From Salmonella phage vB_SenS-3, in the sequence record OR896822.1: a stretch of DNA of 64,000 bases; one strand, given 5' to 3'. The notes under the pieces are model-generated. The model did not search any database. It was not told the DNA's origin and worked only from the letters and a program-made list of their open reading frames with translations. The position numbers were made by a program, and so were the translations under genes. Shown piece after piece: positions 1,870 to 23,769 of this stretch; positions within the stretch are counted from its first letter, which is position 1, and each line of letters begins with the position of its first letter.

Positions 1870-3086
1870 TGGGTTTAAAAAGCTGGATTACTGAAAAGCT
1901 AAATCCGGGTCAACGTATTATAAGAGACATGGAACCCGTTAGTCATCGCACTAACCGTAAGCCATTTACCACTGGACAAGCCTACAGTAAGATTGAGATT
2001 CTCAACCGAACTGCTAACATGGTTATCGATAGTGCGGCGGAGTGTTCTTATACTGTCGGAGATAAATATAATATTGTCACGTACGCTAATGGCGTCAAGG
2101 CAAAGACTCTAGACACTCTCTTAAATGTACGACCTAATCCATTCATGGATATAAGCACATTCCGTAGACTTGTAGTCACTGACCTACTTTTTGAGGGTTG
2201 TGCATACATCTATTGGGATGGCACAGCACTTTACCATGTCCCTGCTGCACTAATGCAAGTAGAGGCAGATGCCAATAAGTTTATCAAAAAATTCATATTT
2301 AATAACCAGATAGACTATCGCGTAGATGAGATTATCTTTATAAAGGATAACAGTTACGTGTGTGGCACAAACTCCCAAATTTCTGGACAATCTCGTGTTG
2401 CTACAGTTATTGACTCTCTTGAGAAGCGTTCTAAAATGCTTAACTTTAAAGAGAAGTTCCTCGATAACGGCACAGTGATTGGTCTTATTCTTGAGACGGA
2501 TGAAATCCTGAACAAGAAATTGCGTGAGCGTAAACAAGAAGAATTACAACTCGATTATAATCCTAGTACTGGTCAGTCTACTGTCCTGATTCTAGATGGT
2601 GGTATGAAAGCAAAACCGTACTCCCAAATATCCTCTTTTAAAGATCTAGACTTCAAGGAAGATATCGAAGGATTTAATAAATCCATCTGTCTTGCCTTTG
2701 GTGTTCCGCAAGTGTTACTTGATGGTGGTAATAATGCTAACATTCGACCAAACATCGAATTGTTCTATTACATGACTATCATTCCTATGCTGAACAAGCT
2801 GACTAGTTCTCTTACTTTCTTCTTTGGCTACAAGGTTACTCCTAATACTAAGGAAGTAGCTGCACTGACGCCAGATAAAGAAGCTGAGGCTAAACATTTA
2901 ACCTCTTTGGTTAATAACGGTATCATGACTGGTAACGAAGCTCGTGAAGAGCTTAACCTTGAACCTTTAGATGATGAGCAGATGAATAAGATTCGTATTC
3001 CTGCTAACGTTGCTGGTTCTGCAACAGGTGTATCTGGTCAAGAAGGTGGTAGACCGCAAGGCACTGCCGATGGGGATAAAGAATGA
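1869..3086 (+). CDS. portal protein
   Basis: 405-aa ORF directly after terminase in the head module; start overlaps upstream stop (TAATG); size matches T5 pb7-type portal. Confidence 0.8.
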   Translation: MGLKSWITEKLNPGQRIIRDMEPVSHRTNRKPFTTGQAYSKIEILNRTANMVIDSAAECSYTVGDKYNIVTYANGVKAKTLDTLLNVRPNPFMDISTFRRLVVTDLLFEGCAYIYWDGTALYHVPAALMQVEADANKFIKKFIFNNQIDYRVDEIIFIKDNSYVCGTNSQISGQSRVATVIDSLEKRSKMLNFKEKFLDNGTVIGLILETDEILNKKLRERKQEELQLDYNPSTGQSTVLILDGGMKAKPYSQISSFKDLDFKEDIEGFNKSICLAFGVPQVLLDGGNNANIRPNIELFYYMTIIPMLNKLTSSLTFFFGYKVTPNTKEVAALTPDKEAEAKHLTSLVNNGIMTGNEAREELNLEPLDDEQMNKIRIPANVAGSATGVSGQEGGRPQGTADGDKE

Positions 3087-20014: not shown

Positions 20015-20437
20015 ATGAGTACAGAAAACCGAGTTATTGATATTGTTGTTGATGAGAAAGTACCTTATGGTCTTATCATGCAGTTTATGGATGTTGATGA
20101 CAGTGTATATCTACCAACAGAAGTTCCTGTTAACTTAACCGGATATTCACTCCGAGGAACTATTAAATCTAGTCTAGATGAGAACGCCGAGGTTCTAGCT
20201 AATTTTAAAACTCATATTATTGATGCTACTCAAGGTGCTGCTGCAATTAGTCTTTCCATTGCAGACACTACTAATATTAGTGAAAAAGCATCTAAAGAAC
20301 GTGATAAGTATAACCCAAGACAACGTTTTGCTGGTTATTATGATATCATAATGACTCGTGATGTAATTGGCTCTGAAGTCAATTCTTTCCGTATTATGGA
20401 AGGTAAAGTATACATCAGCGATGGAGTAACTCAATAA
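20015..20437 (+). CDS. tail collar protein (p132-like)
   Basis: 140-aa ORF between pb4-like and fibre genes; same size as T5 p132. Confidence 0.45.
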
Positions 20438-22704
20438 TGGCACTTAAAACTAAAATTATTGTACAGCAGATTATGAACATAGATGACACTACAACTACTG
20501 CTAGTAAATATCCTAAGTACACAGTAGTTTTAGGTACTTCTATTAGTTCTATTACTGCTAGCGAACTAACAGCGGCTGTTGAGGTCTCTGCTGCTTCTGC
20601 TGCGGCAGCAAAAGATTCTGAAATTGCAGCAAAAGAATCTGAAATAAATGCTAAGGACTCTGAGAACCTATCTGCAAATTATGCTAACTCTTCAGAAGCT
20701 TCTGCAACTCAATCTGCTACTTCTGCTACTGAAGCGAAGAGACAAGCTGATTTATCTAAAGATAGTGCTGATGCCTCTGCTATTTCTGCTTCTCAATCTG
20801 CTGCGTCCGCTACTAAAGCTGCAGAATCATCAGCTGCAGCAAAAACTAGTGAGACTAACACTCTAGAATCATCAGCTGCAGCAAAAACTAGTGAGACTAA
20901 TGCAAAAACTAGTGAGACTAATGCAAAAACTAGTGAGACTAATGCAGCAGCATATGCAGCAGCAGCAAAAACTAGCGAGACTAATGCTGCTGATTCCGCT
21001 GCCTCTGCTTCTGACTCCAAAGGATTCAGGGATGAAGCAGAAGCATTCGCTGCACAAGCCTCCACATCAGCATTAGCAGCAAAAAACTCAGAAACTAATA
21101 CAAAGACTAGCGAAATTAACTCAAAAGCTAGTGAAGACGCTGCTAAGCTAGCTCAGCAAGGTGCATCAGATAGCGCGAACACAGCTACGCAAGCGATGAC
21201 CACAATACAGGGTCTTAAGTCCGATGTTGAACAGCTTAAAGCTGACACTCAGACCATTAAAGAAGGTGCGGCGACAGAGATTAGAGCAGCTAAGACGGAG
21301 GCAGTAGGAGCAATTGACACAGCTAAGGTAAACGCAATTGCTGAAATCACCCCGTTAAAACAAGCTGCGGAAGACGCTGCCACCTTAGCTGGACAAAAGG
21401 CAGTAACGGCTACAGAACAGGCTACAGCCGCGGCTGGAAGCGCTACAACCGCAGGAGAACAAGCCGTAGCAGCATCCAGTTCCGCAACTCGAGCTGAGAC
21501 CGCAGCAAACAAAGCTGAACAAACTTTGAGCATATCTTTGTTAAAGGATCAGAACCTTGCAGACTTAAGTGACAAGGTACAGGCTCGTATAAACCTAAGT
21601 GTGGATCGTCTTAAACAGAGCGCTGATAGTTCCCGCATTTATGACCCGACAAACCGCTACAACTTAGTTGTAATGGATACAGGGTCTTGGGGTGTCTATG
21701 ACGATACTAGTAATGTATTTAAACCTTTAGGAGTAGGACAGGGCGGCACGGGAGCTTGGGACGCAGAGGGTGCTCGCAACAACATCGGGGCGCTGTCCAA
21801 AGGTGGTGACACTGCGACCGCCATGATTGCTACTAAACATTCTTATCCTGCTGGCTCAACAGGGCAAATTTTGGGTTGGTCGTGGCGATCAATTGTAGAA
21901 GGCTATGGTATCGGAACGGCGACTGCTGATTTTTACGTAAACCACACAGTAGGAAGCGTCACATATGCCTGCATTAAGCCTACTCGAGTGACCGGTGAAA
22001 GCTGGGAGTATCTTTTTAGCGACTTTGGCGAAATGTCTAATATTAGAAGCCTGATTATTAGTCGTAACACAGGTGCGGCAGGAGAGGCGTCCGGTAACAT
22101 GGAGTTGAGTTATGGGGCGGGGCAGGTGACACAGTACGCCGCTCGTGTAGATTTTTACGATGGAACTGCACGATCTGTTTTAGATACCTACGATGCTACT
22201 CGCTTAACAACTCTCTTACCCTCGGCAGGTGTCATTTGCCGTAGAGGTATTGGTGGTAATTACCAAGCAAATAGCTATTCTTTCTCGTGGGAAAATCCTG
22301 GAGTAGATGTATGGATTGATAGTACTCGTATTGGGCGAGTAACGCTGGATCCTACAAGCGACATTGATTATAAAGAACAGGTTGAGCCATGGGACGGTAA
22401 GAGTGCGTTAAACAATATCAATCAGTTAGAGCTCGTGACGTTTATCTTCAAAGATGATATAAAGCGTCGGGTACGTCGTGGAATCATTGCACAGCAAGCG
22501 GCAACCATAGACCCTGAATACACACACTCAAGCGAGGATAAGGAGGGAAATACAATTCTTTCGCTTGATACTAACGTGCTGTTACTGGATGCGCTTGCTG
22601 CTATCCAGGTGCTAAGCGCCCGTGTCAGTAAATTAGAGTCTTTGTTAGAAGATAAACCAACCACTCTACCTGAAGACCCCGCTCCAAATCAAGACCTTCC
22701 TTAA
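20437..22704 (+). CDS. L-shaped tail fibre protein with C-terminal intramolecular chaperone domain
   Basis: 755 aa; Ala/Ser/Thr-rich shaft with perfect tandem repeats (AKTSETN); C-terminal segment GIIAQQAATIDPEYTHSSEDKEGNTILSLDTNVLLLDALAAIQVLSARVSKLESLL resembles the self-cleaving chaperone domain of T5 pb1 and endosialidases. Confidence 0.7.
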   Translation: MALKTKIIVQQIMNIDDTTTTASKYPKYTVVLGTSISSITASELTAAVEVSAASAAAAKDSEIAAKESEINAKDSENLSANYANSSEASATQSATSATEAKRQADLSKDSADASAISASQSAASATKAAESSAAAKTSETNTLESSAAAKTSETNAKTSETNAKTSETNAAAYAAAAKTSETNAADSAASASDSKGFRDEAEAFAAQASTSALAAKNSETNTKTSEINSKASEDAAKLAQQGASDSANTATQAMTTIQGLKSDVEQLKADTQTIKEGAATEIRAAKTEAVGAIDTAKVNAIAEITPLKQAAEDAATLAGQKAVTATEQATAAAGSATTAGEQAVAASSSATRAETAANKAEQTLSISLLKDQNLADLSDKVQARINLSVDRLKQSADSSRIYDPTNRYNLVVMDTGSWGVYDDTSNVFKPLGVGQGGTGAWDAEGARNNIGALSKGGDTATAMIATKHSYPAGSTGQILGWSWRSIVEGYGIGTATADFYVNHTVGSVTYACIKPTRVTGESWEYLFSDFGEMSNIRSLIISRNTGAAGEASGNMELSYGAGQVTQYAARVDFYDGTARSVLDTYDATRLTTLLPSAGVICRRGIGGNYQANSYSFSWENPGVDVWIDSTRIGRVTLDPTSDIDYKEQVEPWDGKSALNNINQLELVTFIFKDDIKRRVRRGIIAQQAATIDPEYTHSSEDKEGNTILSLDTNVLLLDALAAIQVLSARVSKLESLLEDKPTTLPEDPAPNQDLP
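20824..20990 (+). repeat. perfect tandem DNA repeats inside tail fibre gene
   Basis: 35-nt block gaatcatcagctgcagcaaaaactagtgagactaa occurs twice (20824 and 20866), followed by three exact 21-nt units gcaaaaactagtgagactaat and a degenerate copy. Confidence 0.85.
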
Positions 22705-22712
22705 TCCTAAAA

Positions 22713-22738
22713 TACGCGGCTTCGGCTGCGTATTTTTA
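22713..22738 (+). terminator. rho-independent terminator after tail fibre gene
   Basis: Hairpin TACGCGGC-TTCG-GCTGCGTA (one G-U pair) followed by TTTTT. Confidence 0.75.
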
Positions 22739-22860
22739 TCACTTTTAACTTTACAAAACTTTACATCAGATGCCAGGTAAACTTTTTGTTATGCACTATG
22801 CTTAACTCGTAATATGCGTGTTACATGTGTTTAACAATCAACTCTCAGGAGTGTTTACTA

Positions 22861-23189
22861 TGTCTGACAGGACTCTTTTACCGACCAACATGGGCGGGCT
22901 CGGTGGTGACGGTGTTATGCCTGGTATCGCTGCTTTTAGTGGTGCGCTGATTGATTCCTGGTTAGGTAATGGTGCGGGTGGTCGTGGTGTTGGTGCGGGT
23001 GGTGTGGATGGCGCGGTTTCCGTTGCTAGTACTGCTGCAAACATGCTGACTACTTCACTGGTAAGCGATATCGAATCCATTCAGAGCGGACTGAACAATC
23101 TGGGCCTAACTGTTGTACAGGGTCAGGGTACAACCAATCTGGCAATCGCTAACACAGGCGCAATGAACCTGAACGCTATTACCCAATAG
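22861..23189 (+). CDS. glycine-rich hypothetical protein (moron-like); in-frame TAG at 23187-23189 followed by a 65-codon open extension
   Basis: ATG at 22861 with AGGAG RBS 8 nt upstream; GC-rich Gly/Ala-rich ORF (GGLGGDGV...GNGAGGRGVGAGGVDG); frame stays open after the TAG to TGA at 23385-23387. Confidence 0.45.
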
Positions 23190-23334
23190 AATACTCAAAA
23201 CCTGTTGGCGTCTGTCCAGGGTTTTGTAGAGCTGAACACTGCGATCACCTCCAGCACTAGTACCATCGCTGGCGCGATCTCTGCTCAGTCGTTTGATCAA
23301 CAGCGTACAGCATTCCAGGAGCAACTTGCCACTG

Positions 23335-23358
23335 AAAAAAAAAAAAAAAAAAAAAAAA
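23335..23358 (+). repeat. 24-nt poly(A) homopolymer tract
   Basis: Uninterrupted run of 24 A, in frame within the open extension downstream of the TAG (would encode Lys8). Confidence 0.9.
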
Positions 23359-23554
23359 TATTGCTGCGAAACAAGCCTGAGTCTTGATTATCCTAGCAAC
23401 GCAATGCATGTTCTACTGTATTAACAGTTCGCTGATTCTTAGGCTGTTCTTATGTACAATATGAAAACACAAAATGCAAGAGGTTCGTTTTGCACCCTCT
23501 CAGAAAAAAAATTAATAAAATAAAGGAATTAGTAAAACAACTCCTTACTAAATA

Positions 23555-23592
23555 AGAGAAAACCCCAGTGGATTGTTCACTGGGGTTTTTTA
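23555..23592. terminator. bidirectional rho-independent terminator between convergent late (+) and early (-) units
   Basis: Hairpin CCCCAGTG-gattgtt-CACTGGGG flanked by an A-run upstream and T-run downstream. Confidence 0.75.
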
Positions 23593-23769
23593 TTACTCTT
23601 TACCTCCTGCGATAATACCTAAGTTATACACGGCAAGCATATCACTAATGGTAGGATCTTGAGACTCAGAACACAGTTTAATAAACCCTTCTTCATCCCA
23701 TTGCTCTACATTGCCAAACATATCCACTTTTAGTACTACCTTATCAAGGGTAGGGGGTGCTATAATCAT
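23593..23769 (-). CDS. small hypothetical protein (58 aa)
   Basis: ORF MIIAPPTLDKVV...GIIAGGKE lying between the dUTPase stop and the bidirectional terminator; no convincing SD. Confidence 0.2.
   Translation of the reverse strand: MIIAPPTLDKVVLKVDMFGNVEQWDEEGFIKLCSESQDPTISDMLAVYNLGIIAGGKE

What the first reader, a model, noticed from the sequence alone, without database searches (positions are those of the whole stretch)
22713..23592. GC-rich glycine-rich moron-like gene between tail fibre gene and early module, interrupted by an in-frame TAG
A short unit bounded by two rho-independent terminators (22713-22738 and the bidirectional one at 23555-23592) holds a single gene with its own sigma70-like promoter (around TTGTTA...TAATAT, 22770-22810) and AGGAG RBS. 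The ORF (22861-23189) is much more GC-rich than its surroundings and encodes a Gly/Ala-rich product (GGLGGDGV, GNGAGGRGVGAGGVDG), reminiscent of bacteriocin-like glycine-rich peptides. It ends at TAG 23187-23189, but the same frame stays open for 65 more codons with matching composition (NTQNLLASVQGFVELNTAITSSTSTIAGAISAQSF...) to TGA 23385-23387. A 65-codon stop-free continuation in AT-rich DNA is unlikely by chance. So this is either a recently inactivated gene, a readthrough-regulated gene, or a sequencing error. Promoter plus terminator plus atypical composition is the classic signature of a horizontally acquired moron.
Basis: partly seen in the sequence, partly recalled or inferred. Interest (0 to 1): 0.7.

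Follow-up and report, generated by a model that had tools for sequence, protein, structure and literature searches.

The report
Decayed phage gene with expanding poly-A
The "glycine-rich gene with an in-frame TAG" is the broken remnant of a conserved but uncharacterised ~235-residue gene that other phages carry intact at this position, so it is an ordinary pseudogene rather than a readthrough-regulated gene or a bacteriocin-like moron.

Summary
The core observation is real. The ORF starts at ATG 22860 (not 22861) and runs 109 codons to TAG 23187-23189. The same frame stays open for 65 more codons to TGA 23385-23387, and the unit is flanked by two terminators.

The whole stretch 22860-23556 is collinear with one uninterrupted ~235-aa gene (PHROG family phrog_9288, function unknown). 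That gene is intact in Drexlerviridae, Queuovirinae and Sashavirus phages, mostly just downstream of the lateral tail fibre gene. In the closest intact homologues the TAG position is Gln (AITQQNTQNLL).

The window copy carries several lesions:
- CAG->TAG at 23187-23189.
- A frameshifting A-run expanded to A24 (23335-23358). It is 6 to 15 bases in 11 close relatives.
- A further TAA and a further TAG.
- A deletion, a second frameshift, lost conserved cysteines and a lost C-terminus.

The TAG is identical in all 11 relatives examined, so it is not a sequencing error. Substitutions within the clade look neutral. A close relative encodes no amber-suppressor tRNA. Other T5-like phages keep only other fragments of the same gene at this locus.

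Verdict: a stepwise-decayed pseudogene at the tail-fibre module border. Readthrough, sequencing error and bacteriocin-like moron do not. Interest is low.

The parts
22709..22736 (+). Intrinsic terminator of the lateral (L-shaped) tail fibre gene (20437-22704). It forms the left border of the unit.
   Evidence: 12-pair stem, T tail. Invariant in 11 relatives. An equivalent hairpin precedes the intact homologues.
22750..22859 (+). Conserved upstream region of the gene. It contains the direct repeat TTTACA..TTTACA (22750-22765), a -10-like TATGCT (22797-22802), an imperfect inverted repeat GTAATA..TGTTAC (within 22808-22828) and RBS AGGAG (22847-22851).
   Evidence: Only 2 of 155 intergenic columns vary among 12 genomes. 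Blocks are shared with the upstream regions of intact homologues in Seuratvirus, Nonagvirus and Sashavirus. No site passed the sigma-70 consensus scan, so promoter activity is inferred, not shown.
22860..23186 (+). ORF1, 109 codons. It is the N-terminal part of the pseudogene (Gly-rich segment plus the start of the long helix) and aligns to phrog_9288 profile positions 1-101.
   Evidence: (E = 3.5e-17).
23187..23189 (+). In-frame TAG replacing a Gln codon (CAG->TAG).
   Evidence: Intact homologues have Q here: AITQQNTQNLL in P0029 and P0092, ITNQNTQNLL in PaulSarasin. The TAG is invariant in 11 relatives.
23190..23334 (+). Post-TAG segment, 48 codons in the ORF1 frame. It aligns to phrog_9288 positions 103-152 and is the best-preserved part of the copy.
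   Evidence: E = 7.3e-13. Proportion of nonsynonymous differences 0.13 against PaulSarasin.
23335..23358 (+). A24 homopolymer. It is a runaway expansion of the GAA AAA (Glu-Lys) codons that precede the conserved Cys-Cys-Cys-Glu motif, and it shifts the frame.
   Evidence: Run lengths are 6,6,6,6,7,8,9,10,14,14,15 in relatives and 24 here, and 5 or 6 in other Epseptimavirus relics. Intact genes read GAAAGA, GAAAAG or CAGAAG followed by TGTTGCTGCGA. It is the only homopolymer of 9 or more bases in the window.
23359..23556 (+). AT-rich C-terminal relic of the same gene, in shifted frames (YCCETSLSLDYPSNAMHVLLY*QFADS*AVLMYNMK..KINKIKELVKQLLTK*). It carries TAA 23422-23424 and TAG 23440-23442, a roughly 7-codon deletion with a second frameshift at the A8 run 23504-23511, lost conserved Cys residues and a lost PTPPTPPTGCC end.
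   Evidence: DNA match to Drexlerviridae genes up to 23503; proportion of nonsynonymous differences 0.41-0.46, against 0.08-0.15 between intact genes; GC 0.338.
23557..23591 (.). Bidirectional intrinsic terminator. It forms the right border and is shared with the convergent early-gene block (58-aa ORF, dUTPase, flap endonuclease).
   Evidence: Conserved across T5-like phages, with G-run length variation in some.

Best explanation
Window 22860-23556 is a pseudogene. It is the decayed copy of a phrog_9288-family gene, about 235 aa when intact. The intact protein has a Gly-rich N-terminus, one roughly 160-residue helix, a CCCE motif and a Pro/Cys-rich C-terminus. Its function is unknown.

In Drexlerviridae and Queuovirinae this gene sits as its own small transcription unit just downstream of the lateral tail fibre gene or genes. 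In Sashavirus it has the same downstream neighbours, but a homing endonuclease gene lies upstream.

Inferred order of decay in this T5-like (Epseptimavirus) lineage:
1. The C-terminal third was lost first. Its TAA, its TAG and the Cys-to-Tyr change are shared with Epseptimaviruses that carry other tail-fibre modules.
2. A G->A change made GAA AAA. That A5 run slipped to A6 (a frameshift) and then, free of selection, drifted to between 7 and 24 bases.
3. In the clade with this tail-fibre type, the surviving 5' two-thirds acquired CAG->TAG.

Nothing functional can be made across the TAG. At most a 109-aa N-terminal fragment is translated from the retained RBS and ATG.

Shown: homology, collinearity, the lesions, their distribution among relatives and the substitution pattern. 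Inferred: the order of events, the absence of function and the slippage mechanism.
For: Family membership and collinearity:
- ORF1 and the continuation hit consecutive parts of one PHROG profile (positions 1-101 and 103-152 of 234).
- DNA-level homology of 70-74% to single 711-bp genes downstream of the lateral tail fibre gene in phages PaulSarasin and DanielBernoulli.
- A 7-sequence alignment shows collinearity to the end of the relic.
- 194 homologous protein clusters were found, and the 120 listed are mostly 225-255 aa.

The lesions:
- The closest intact homologues, P0029 and P0092 (71% identity), have Gln at the TAG position.
- Lesion coordinates were verified.
- A-run lengths of 6 to 24 fall in all three frame classes, and phage bux has an extra TAA.

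Loss of constraint:
- The relic's proportion of nonsynonymous differences is 0.41-0.46, against 0.08-0.15 between intact genes.
- Its GC has fallen to 0.338, against a uniform 0.476 in an intact homologue.
- Within-clade changes in ORF1 are about 9 nonsynonymous to 2 synonymous events. Binomial p is about 0.001 against family-typical constraint.

Other evidence:
- No amber-suppressor tRNA in the close relative PMBT36.
- Independent decay states sit at the same locus in other T5-like phages: Gostya9 keeps 47 N-terminal codons plus a C-terminal stub, while bobsandoy, SuperGirl and KKP_3822 keep only the C-terminal relic with the same TAA and TAG.
- The family is also broken or truncated repeatedly in Seuratvirus.
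Against: - ORF1 has stayed open in all 12 genomes, and its two indels (-6 in SP_Thor, +3 in rokbiter) are in frame. They lie in a GGT/GCG repeat, where slippage in multiples of three is expected anyway.
- The upstream region, RBS and ATG are better conserved than the ORF: 2 of 155 variable columns against 16 of 327. This could mean the unit is still transcribed.
- The post-TAG 48 codons are well preserved relative to intact homologues (proportion of nonsynonymous differences 0.13).
- Substitution counts are small, and no expression data exist.
Confidence: 0.8

Rival explanations
1. Truncated but functional gene. The 109-aa N-terminal fragment (a Gly-zipper-like segment plus a short helix) is still expressed from its own signals and has a function of its own, for example a small membrane-active protein. 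Only the sequence downstream of the TAG is junk.
For: - The RBS, ATG and upstream region are retained and highly conserved.
- ORF1 is open in 12 of 12 genomes, with in-frame indels only.
- N-terminal fragments with the same upstream region also persist in Gostya9 and in the TAG-interrupted SeppeHuegi and Skure.
Against: - Within-clade substitutions in ORF1 are about 9 nonsynonymous to 2 synonymous, which looks neutral.
- The proportion of nonsynonymous differences against intact homologues in the Gly-rich part is about twice that between intact genes.
- C-terminal-only relics are just as common in other phages, as expected from random breakpoints.
- The Gostya9 fragment is nearly identical to Seuratvirus DNA, which points to a recent transfer rather than long retention.
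Confidence: 0.14
2. Recoding. The TAG is read through (near-cognate tRNA-Gln, leaky TAG-A context), and the A-run gives transcriptional or translational slippage. A minor fraction of longer products is therefore made in a regulated or phase-variable way.
For: - The TAG is followed by A in both independent cases, TAG AAT here and TAG AAC in SeppeHuegi.
- The close relative PMBT36 encodes tRNA-Gln(CUG).
- The post-TAG 48 codons are well preserved.
- From general knowledge, long A-runs cause RNA polymerase and ribosome slippage.
Against: - Even with readthrough and any frame choice at the A-run, the product ends at TGA 23385 or TAA 23422, and the rest carries a further TAG, a deletion and a second frameshift.
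- A-run lengths fall in all frame classes, and bux has a TAA at the run.
- The TAG is confined to one shallow clade, while every intact homologue uses CAG.
- No suppressor tRNA is found.
Confidence: 0.03
3. Horizontally acquired moron encoding a glycine-rich bacteriocin-like peptide.
For: - Terminators lie on both sides.
- GC is 0.52 against a window mean of 0.40.
- The Gly/Ala-rich hydrophobic N-terminus looks, from memory, like class II microcins.
- The family and its upstream region do move between phage families.
Against: - There are no Pfam, NCBIfam, PADLOC or PDB matches, and no leader, immunity or export genes nearby.
- The intact protein is about 235 aa and is dominated by a roughly 160-residue helix.
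- It is a resident gene of lytic siphoviruses at a fixed position, not an insertion between otherwise adjacent genes.
- Here it is broken.
- The high GC follows from Gly and Ala codons, and the intact homologues are about 0.48 GC throughout.
Confidence: 0.02
4. Sequencing or assembly artefact, affecting the TAG and/or the A24 run.
For: Homopolymer lengths are error-prone on several platforms, and 24 is the longest value among the 12 genomes.
Against: - The TAG is identical in 11 independently sequenced genomes.
- The A-run is expanded to between 7 and 15 bases in seven other genomes. A second A-run and a G-run nearby also vary, so the instability is a property of the locus.
Confidence: 0.01

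Closest known systems
PHROG family phrog_9288 (unknown function). Examples: Escherichia phage PaulSarasin bas09_0032 'putative sugar-binding protein' (QXV83677.1), DanielBernoulli bas08_0030, CAjan AJT60506.1, JenK1 gp25, Sasha gp07.
   Same: - Clear sequence homology over the whole length, with the same order of segments.
- The same position in most carriers, directly after the lateral tail fibre gene or genes and before a terminator.
- Similar upstream DNA blocks.
   Different: Those genes are single intact ORFs of 231-237 aa with all conserved cysteines and the PTPPTPPTGCC end. The window copy has two TAGs, a TAA, two frameshifts at A-runs, a deletion and no C-terminus. The published names ('sugar-binding', 'tail fiber chaperone') are untested annotations. 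I found no domain support for them.
Gene remnants at phage module junctions. Mosaic boundaries left by tail-fibre cassette exchange are described in general terms for lambdoid and T-even phages. For T5-like tail-fibre loci see the BASEL collection paper PMC8594841, S-figure legend.
   Same: - The locus lies exactly where identity between T5-like genomes drops at the lateral tail fibre genes (PMC8594841).
- Different T5-like lineages keep different fragments of the same gene.
- In Seuratvirus the gene is truncated at either end or fused to the tail fibre's chaperone domain.
   Different: I have not shown that crossovers actually occur inside this gene. The tail fibre genes next to the closest intact homologues are only distantly related to the window's (30-42% identity over parts).
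Morons of temperate phages (promoter, gene and terminator inserted between conserved neighbours). This is my recollection of the concept from Hendrix and colleagues.
   Same: A small unit bracketed by terminators, with composition different from the genome mean.
   Different: It is not an extra insertion, not intact, not in a temperate phage, and has no identifiable host-benefit function. The promoter is unconfirmed.
Homopolymeric-tract contingency loci and programmed slippage sites (general knowledge).
   Same: An A-run whose length differs between near-identical genomes (6 to 24 bases) and switches the reading frame.
   Different: In a contingency locus the gene is intact on both sides of the tract, so one length class gives a functional product. 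Here both sides are already broken, and all length classes occur.
Programmed stop-codon readthrough or stop-codon reassignment in phages, such as Q-beta A1 and TAG-recoded phages with suppressor tRNAs (general knowledge).
   Same: An in-frame stop codon followed by homologous coding-like sequence in the same frame.
   Different: There is no intact downstream domain, no suppressor tRNA in the close relative, and no deep conservation of the TAG. Homologues use CAG.

Membership tests
phrog_9288 protein family | Significant sequence match to the family profile over its length | tested here: met
   ORF1 E = 3.5e-17 (profile positions 1-101) and continuation E = 7.3e-13 (positions 103-152). The C-terminal part aligns in shifted frames.
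phrog_9288 protein family | One uninterrupted ORF of about 225-255 aa | tested here: not met
   TAG 23187, frameshift at A24, TAA 23422, TAG 23440 and a second frameshift at 23504-23511. Most of the 120 listed homologues are 225-255 aa.
phrog_9288 protein family | Invariant CCC-E-T-N motif, further conserved Cys residues and the C-terminal KLPTPPTPPTGCC | tested here: not met
   The window reads YCCETS out of frame, the C at 'LIC' and the C at 'NCK' are lost, and the C-terminus is absent.
phrog_9288 protein family | Position downstream of the lateral tail fibre gene or genes, with its own upstream region and terminator | tested here: met
   The same arrangement is seen in PaulSarasin, DanielBernoulli, SeppeHuegi, CAjan, JenK1 and contig L024. 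Sasha is an exception on the upstream side.
Moron | Own promoter and terminator | tested here: inconclusive
   Terminators are found. No promoter passes the consensus scan, although upstream blocks are conserved across families.
Moron | An extra gene inserted between genes that are adjacent in related phages | tested here: not met
   Relatives without ORF1 still carry relics of the same gene at the same place. In other families the gene is a constant resident.
Moron | Intact, expressible gene | tested here: not met
   Multiple disabling lesions.
Programmed TAG readthrough or recoded gene | Downstream region intact and under purifying selection | tested here: not met
   The frame is broken by an A-run of variable length. 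bux has an extra TAA. The relic's proportion of nonsynonymous differences is 0.41-0.46.
Programmed TAG readthrough or recoded gene | Suppressor tRNA (anticodon CUA) available | tested here: not met
   No tRNAs in the window. None of the 28 tRNAs in the tRNA region of the 98%-identical phage PMBT36 has anticodon CUA. The window phage's own tRNA region is outside the window and was not tested.
Programmed TAG readthrough or recoded gene | Stop codon conserved across divergent members | tested here: not met
   The TAG occurs only in one clade of 94-99% identity. Intact homologues have CAG. A second TAG, in SeppeHuegi (probably shared by Skure, whose record annotates two ORFs), is at a different Gln codon.
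Glycine-rich bacteriocin / class II microcin | Small secreted peptide with a leader and linked immunity and export genes | tested here: not met
   No family hit in Pfam, NCBIfam or PADLOC. The neighbours are the tail fibre and dUTPase genes. The ancestral product is about 235 aa and mostly one helix.
Phase-variable homopolymer (contingency) locus | Tract length varies between isolates | tested here: met
   6 to 24 A in 12 genomes.
Phase-variable homopolymer (contingency) locus | One tract length restores a complete functional ORF | tested here: not met
   The in-frame lengths (5, 8, 11, 14 and so on) only reach TAA 23422, and upstream there is already a TAG.

The most novel reading that the evidence does not exclude
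The phrog_9288 gene and its relics may act as the shared right-hand homology arm of the lateral-tail-fibre cassette. This would let unrelated siphovirus families (Drexlerviridae, Queuovirinae, T5-like Demerecviridae) swap tail-fibre modules.

On this reading the window copy is a recombination scar. A GC-rich, little-decayed 5' two-thirds is joined to an old AT-rich relic at the most conserved DNA block of the family (TGTTGCTGCGAAAC, next to the A-run).

Observations that fit:
- The sharp break in GC and in decay falls at the A-run.
- Other Epseptimaviruses are homologous only to the right of it.
- The Gostya9 fragment is near-identical to Seuratvirus DNA.
- The gene has many end-truncated or fused versions in Seuratvirus.

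Stepwise in-situ decay explains the same data.
Probability: 0.3. Interest if true: 0.45.

Novelty: new member of a known kind. Interest (0 to 1): 0.22.

Why it matters
- **Annotation.** The 109-aa 'hypothetical protein' and the small ORFs called after it in dozens of Epseptimavirus records are fragments of one dead gene. The S113 annotators hinted at this with the labels orf22a and orf22b.
- **Recoding screens.** An in-frame TAG with an open downstream frame in a tRNA-rich phage can look like recoding. Comparison with intact homologues resolves it quickly.
- **A lead worth following.** A widespread, completely uncharacterised ~235-aa phage protein family sits at the tail-fibre module border. 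It appears dispensable and is repeatedly broken. This may help in mapping where tail-fibre cassettes recombine, which is useful for host-range engineering.
- **Marker.** The A24 run is a natural example of runaway homopolymer expansion once selection is lost, and it could serve as a strain-typing marker.

Tried and rejected
- Pfam, NCBIfam, PADLOC and PDB-sequence searches of window fragments and intact homologues gave nothing significant.
- Rfam on 22600-23700 gave only sub-threshold hits around the terminator.
- An AlphaFold model of an intact member had mean pLDDT 58 and was a single long helix with a disordered Gly-rich N-terminus. That is too uninformative for a fold search, so none was run.
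- Co-transfer of the gene with the tail fibre gene was tested. The window tail fibre matches those of PaulSarasin and contig L024 only at 30-42% over parts, so there is no evidence for a shared cassette with these donors.
- A search for a sense-codon (CAG) variant of this exact gene type found only phage H8 itself in IMG/VR and nothing in the metagenome contigs. A pattern spanning the A-run found nothing in IMG/VR.
- No amber-suppressor tRNA was found.
- Literature searches for the family, for Epseptimavirus homopolymers or pseudogenes, and for Seuratvirus virion proteomics found nothing specific.
- Antisense ORFs over the region (80, 72 and 50 aa) were considered. They were dismissed as the Pro-rich complement of Gly codons, with no homology support.
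- Synonymous sites between the window and intact homologues are saturated (proportion of synonymous differences 0.5-0.9), so the lesions could not be dated.
Full report
**What the window is.** The region matches Salmonella T5-like phages of the genus Epseptimavirus at 94-99% identity (for example vB_SenS-3, PMBT36, bux, S113 and Escherichia phage H8). This holds for 43 GenBank/RefSeq records over the full 1 kb. The gene order on the + strand is tail genes, then the lateral (L-shaped) tail fibre gene at 20437-22704, then the unit in question. After it comes a convergent early block on the - strand: a 58-aa ORF, dUTPase, flap endonuclease and D14.

**Checking the observation.** Most elements are there.
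- Terminator-like hairpins lie at 22709-22736 and, bidirectionally, at 23557-23591.
- AGGAG is at 22847-22851.
Translating from 22861 gives stops.
- 109 Gly/Ala-rich codons run to TAG 23187-23189, and the same frame stays open for 65 more codons to TGA 23385-23387.
- GC is 0.52 in the ORF against 0.40 for the window. The tail fibre gene upstream is itself 0.46.
- The proposed sigma-70 promoter did not pass the consensus scan.
It supplies eight of the 65 continuation codons.
- A stop-free run of 65 codons occurs in 2% of shuffles, so it is only mildly unlikely by itself.

**What it is.**
- Sensitive DNA comparison showed that window 22855-23503 is 70-74% identical to a single 711-bp gene. That gene lies directly downstream of the lateral tail fibre gene in the Drexlerviridae phages PaulSarasin and DanielBernoulli.
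- The promoter-proximal part also matches Seuratvirus phages and the T5-like phage Gostya9.
- Those genes encode uninterrupted 236-aa proteins.
- Against PHROGs, ORF1 matches positions 1-101 and the post-TAG continuation positions 103-152 of one 234-position family, phrog_9288, of unknown function. E-values are 3.5e-17 and 7.3e-13.
- A protein alignment shows collinearity right to the end. After the A-run the homology continues in another frame: YCCETSLSLDYPSNAMHVLLY*QFADS*AVLMYNMK aligns with CCCETNLNIERQGNATRDLMRQQFADSQAVLICDMK.
- The family is large. There are 194 clusters at E of 1e-5 or better, the 120 listed are mostly 225-255 aa, and all are 'hypothetical' with no Pfam domain.
- The closest intact homologues are P0029 (245 aa, on a Drexlerviridae-like contig with the same gene order) and P0092. 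They are 71% identical to the window copy, share its 9-residue insertion, and read AITQQNTQNLL where the window reads AITQ*NTQNLL.
- The TAG is therefore a CAG->TAG nonsense mutation.

**The full list of lesions** (coordinates verified).
- TAG 23187-23189.
- A frameshift at the A-run. The YCCE frame needs 5, 8, 11 (and so on) A's.
- Cys->Tyr at the first Cys of the invariant CCC motif.
- TAA 23422-23424 (Glu->stop).
- TAG 23440-23442 (Gln->stop).
- Loss of further conserved Cys residues.
- A deletion of about 7 codons and a second frameshift at the A8 run 23504-23511.
- Loss of the conserved C-terminal PTPPTPPTGCC.

**Comparison with relatives.** I aligned 11 close relatives from Denmark, Germany, Poland, Canada, China and an old E. 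coli phage.
- The TAG is invariant, so it is not a base-calling error.
- The A-run is 6, 6, 6, 6, 7, 8, 9, 10, 14, 14 and 15 in the relatives, and 24 here. All three frame classes occur.
- Phage bux additionally has TAA at the start of the run.
- The second A-run varies from 7 to 17, and a G-run in the terminator also varies.
- Other Epseptimaviruses with different tail fibre genes (bobsandoy, SuperGirl, KKP_3822) are homologous only from about 20 nt before the A-run onwards. Their run is A5 or A6, and they share the same TAA and TAG.
- Intact genes read GAAAGA, GAAAAG or CAGAAG before the invariant TGTTGCTGCGA block. The run therefore began as the Glu-Lys codons GAA AAA and expanded by slippage.
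- Gostya9 keeps only 47 N-terminal codons fused to a short C-terminal stub.
- No intact copy was seen on any T5-sized contig.

**Selection.**
- Between intact family members, the C-terminal third is the most constrained part. Its proportion of nonsynonymous differences is 0.08-0.15. The window relic shows 0.41-0.46, and its GC has dropped to 0.338 against a uniform 0.476 in an intact homologue.
- The post-TAG 48 codons are still well preserved (0.13 against PaulSarasin).
- This fits a stepwise history. The C-terminal third died first, since its lesions are shared across the genus. The TAG arose later, in the clade that retains the 5' part.
- Within the clade, ORF1 shows about 9 nonsynonymous against 2 synonymous events. 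That is compatible with neutrality and unlikely (p of about 0.001) under the constraint typical of intact members. The numbers are small.

**Readthrough.**
- The window has no tRNA genes.
- The tRNA region of PMBT36 (98% identical in this region, with the same coordinates for the tail-fibre gene and ORF1) has 28 predicted tRNAs, none with anticodon CUA.
- Even if the TAG were read through, every frame ends within 66 to 78 codons, and the conserved C-terminal half cannot be made.
- A second in-frame TAG in the family (SeppeHuegi, probably shared by Skure, whose record annotates two ORFs) is at a different Gln codon. The gene carrying it is otherwise 98-99% identical to intact neighbours such as CAjan. 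It is therefore another recent knockout, not a conserved signal.
- In Seuratvirus the gene is also found fused to the tail fibre's chaperone domain (KurtStettler) or truncated at either end (SHIN8, PLYYY01, WildeMaa, phiG7, VogelGryff).
- The family thus appears dispensable and often damaged.

**The ancestral protein.**
- Nothing in Pfam, NCBIfam, PADLOC or PDB sequences matches.
- A low-confidence AlphaFold model (pLDDT 58) gives a disordered Gly-rich N-terminus (residues 1-55), one continuous helix (56-219) and a Pro/Cys tail.
- GenBank names such as 'putative sugar-binding protein' or 'lateral tail fiber chaperone' are unsupported by anything I could compute.
- My inference only: it is an oligomeric, probably disulfide-linked coiled-coil protein, with a Gly-zipper-like N-terminus that may associate with membranes or fibres.

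**Moron and bacteriocin reading.**
- The unit is bracketed by terminators and is GC-richer than the genome. However, it is the resident occupant of this module border in several lytic phage families, and it is broken here.
- Its GC follows from Gly and Ala codons and from a family-wide GC of about 0.48.
- No bacteriocin-type features are present.
- The upstream region is well conserved (2 of 155 variable columns) and shares blocks with intact homologues, including an inverted repeat GTAAC-N6-GTTAC. Residual transcription and a 109-aa product remain possible. I give that rival about 0.14.

**Verdict.** This is a real feature, correctly spotted, and its best explanation is ordinary: a multiply disabled pseudogene of an uncharacterised phage gene family, carrying a runaway poly-A tract. 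The most interesting reading not excluded is that this gene serves as the recombination border for tail-fibre cassette exchange between phage families. On that reading the window copy is a crossover scar at the conserved CCCE-motif DNA.

Noticed in passing
window 23335-23358 and 23504-23511; relatives L001, L013, L017, L019-L021: The whole tail-fibre-to-dUTPase intergenic relic is a hotspot of simple-sequence instability. A-run 1 varies from 5 to 24 bases and A-run 2 from 7 to 17. A G-run in the 3' arm of the bidirectional terminator is expanded in H8, S147 and KKP_3822. bobsandoy and SuperGirl have AAAATGC x3 repeats, and bobsandoy also has a roughly 100-bp duplication.
   Followed up: partly
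window 22808-22828; L005 about 3066-3086; L007, L008, L009 upstream regions: A conserved inverted repeat GTAAC-N6-GTTAC lies between a -10-like TATGCT and the RBS. It occurs upstream of phrog_9288 genes in Seuratvirus, Nonagvirus, Sashavirus and Tlsvirus. The window has an imperfect version (GTAATA..TGTTAC). It could be an operator or a 5'-UTR hairpin. PMBT26 has an 11-bp duplication at this spot.
   Followed up: no
L022:1712-1785 (phage PMBT36, outside the window): ARAGORN predicts a tRNA with anticodon TCA (reported as tRNA-SeC, which would read UGA). The GenBank record does not annotate it. It lies between a homing endonuclease gene and a hypothetical gene. It would not read TAG.
   Followed up: no
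L006:481-2013 (phage KurtStettler): A 510-aa ORF joins the C-terminal intramolecular-chaperone (peptidase S74-like) end of a tail fibre protein directly to residue ~20 of the phrog_9288 protein. This is probably the source of the 'lateral tail fiber chaperone' annotation.
   Followed up: partly
L005:3359-3361 (SeppeHuegi); Skure MK672798.1: An independent in-frame TAG at a different Gln codon (IQG*NGTN) sits in an otherwise intact Seuratvirus copy. It is probably shared by Skure, a phage isolated in a different laboratory, whose record annotates two ORFs here.
   Followed up: partly
window 20700-21100 (inside the tail fibre gene 20437-22704): The N-terminal third of the lateral tail fibre protein is a low-complexity Ala/Ser/Thr/Glu repeat (..AAKTSETNAKTSETNAKTSETN..) with strong AT skew.
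   Followed up: no
L003 3763-4833, L004 3452-4555, L005 3892-5077, L009 2068-3212, L024 6794-7901: In Drexlerviridae, Queuovirinae and Sashavirus the intact gene is followed by the same three small genes: one of ~110-120 aa annotated as a putative pyrophosphatase, one of ~165-175 aa and one of ~85-95 aa. None of this trio is present downstream in the T5-like window.
   Followed up: no
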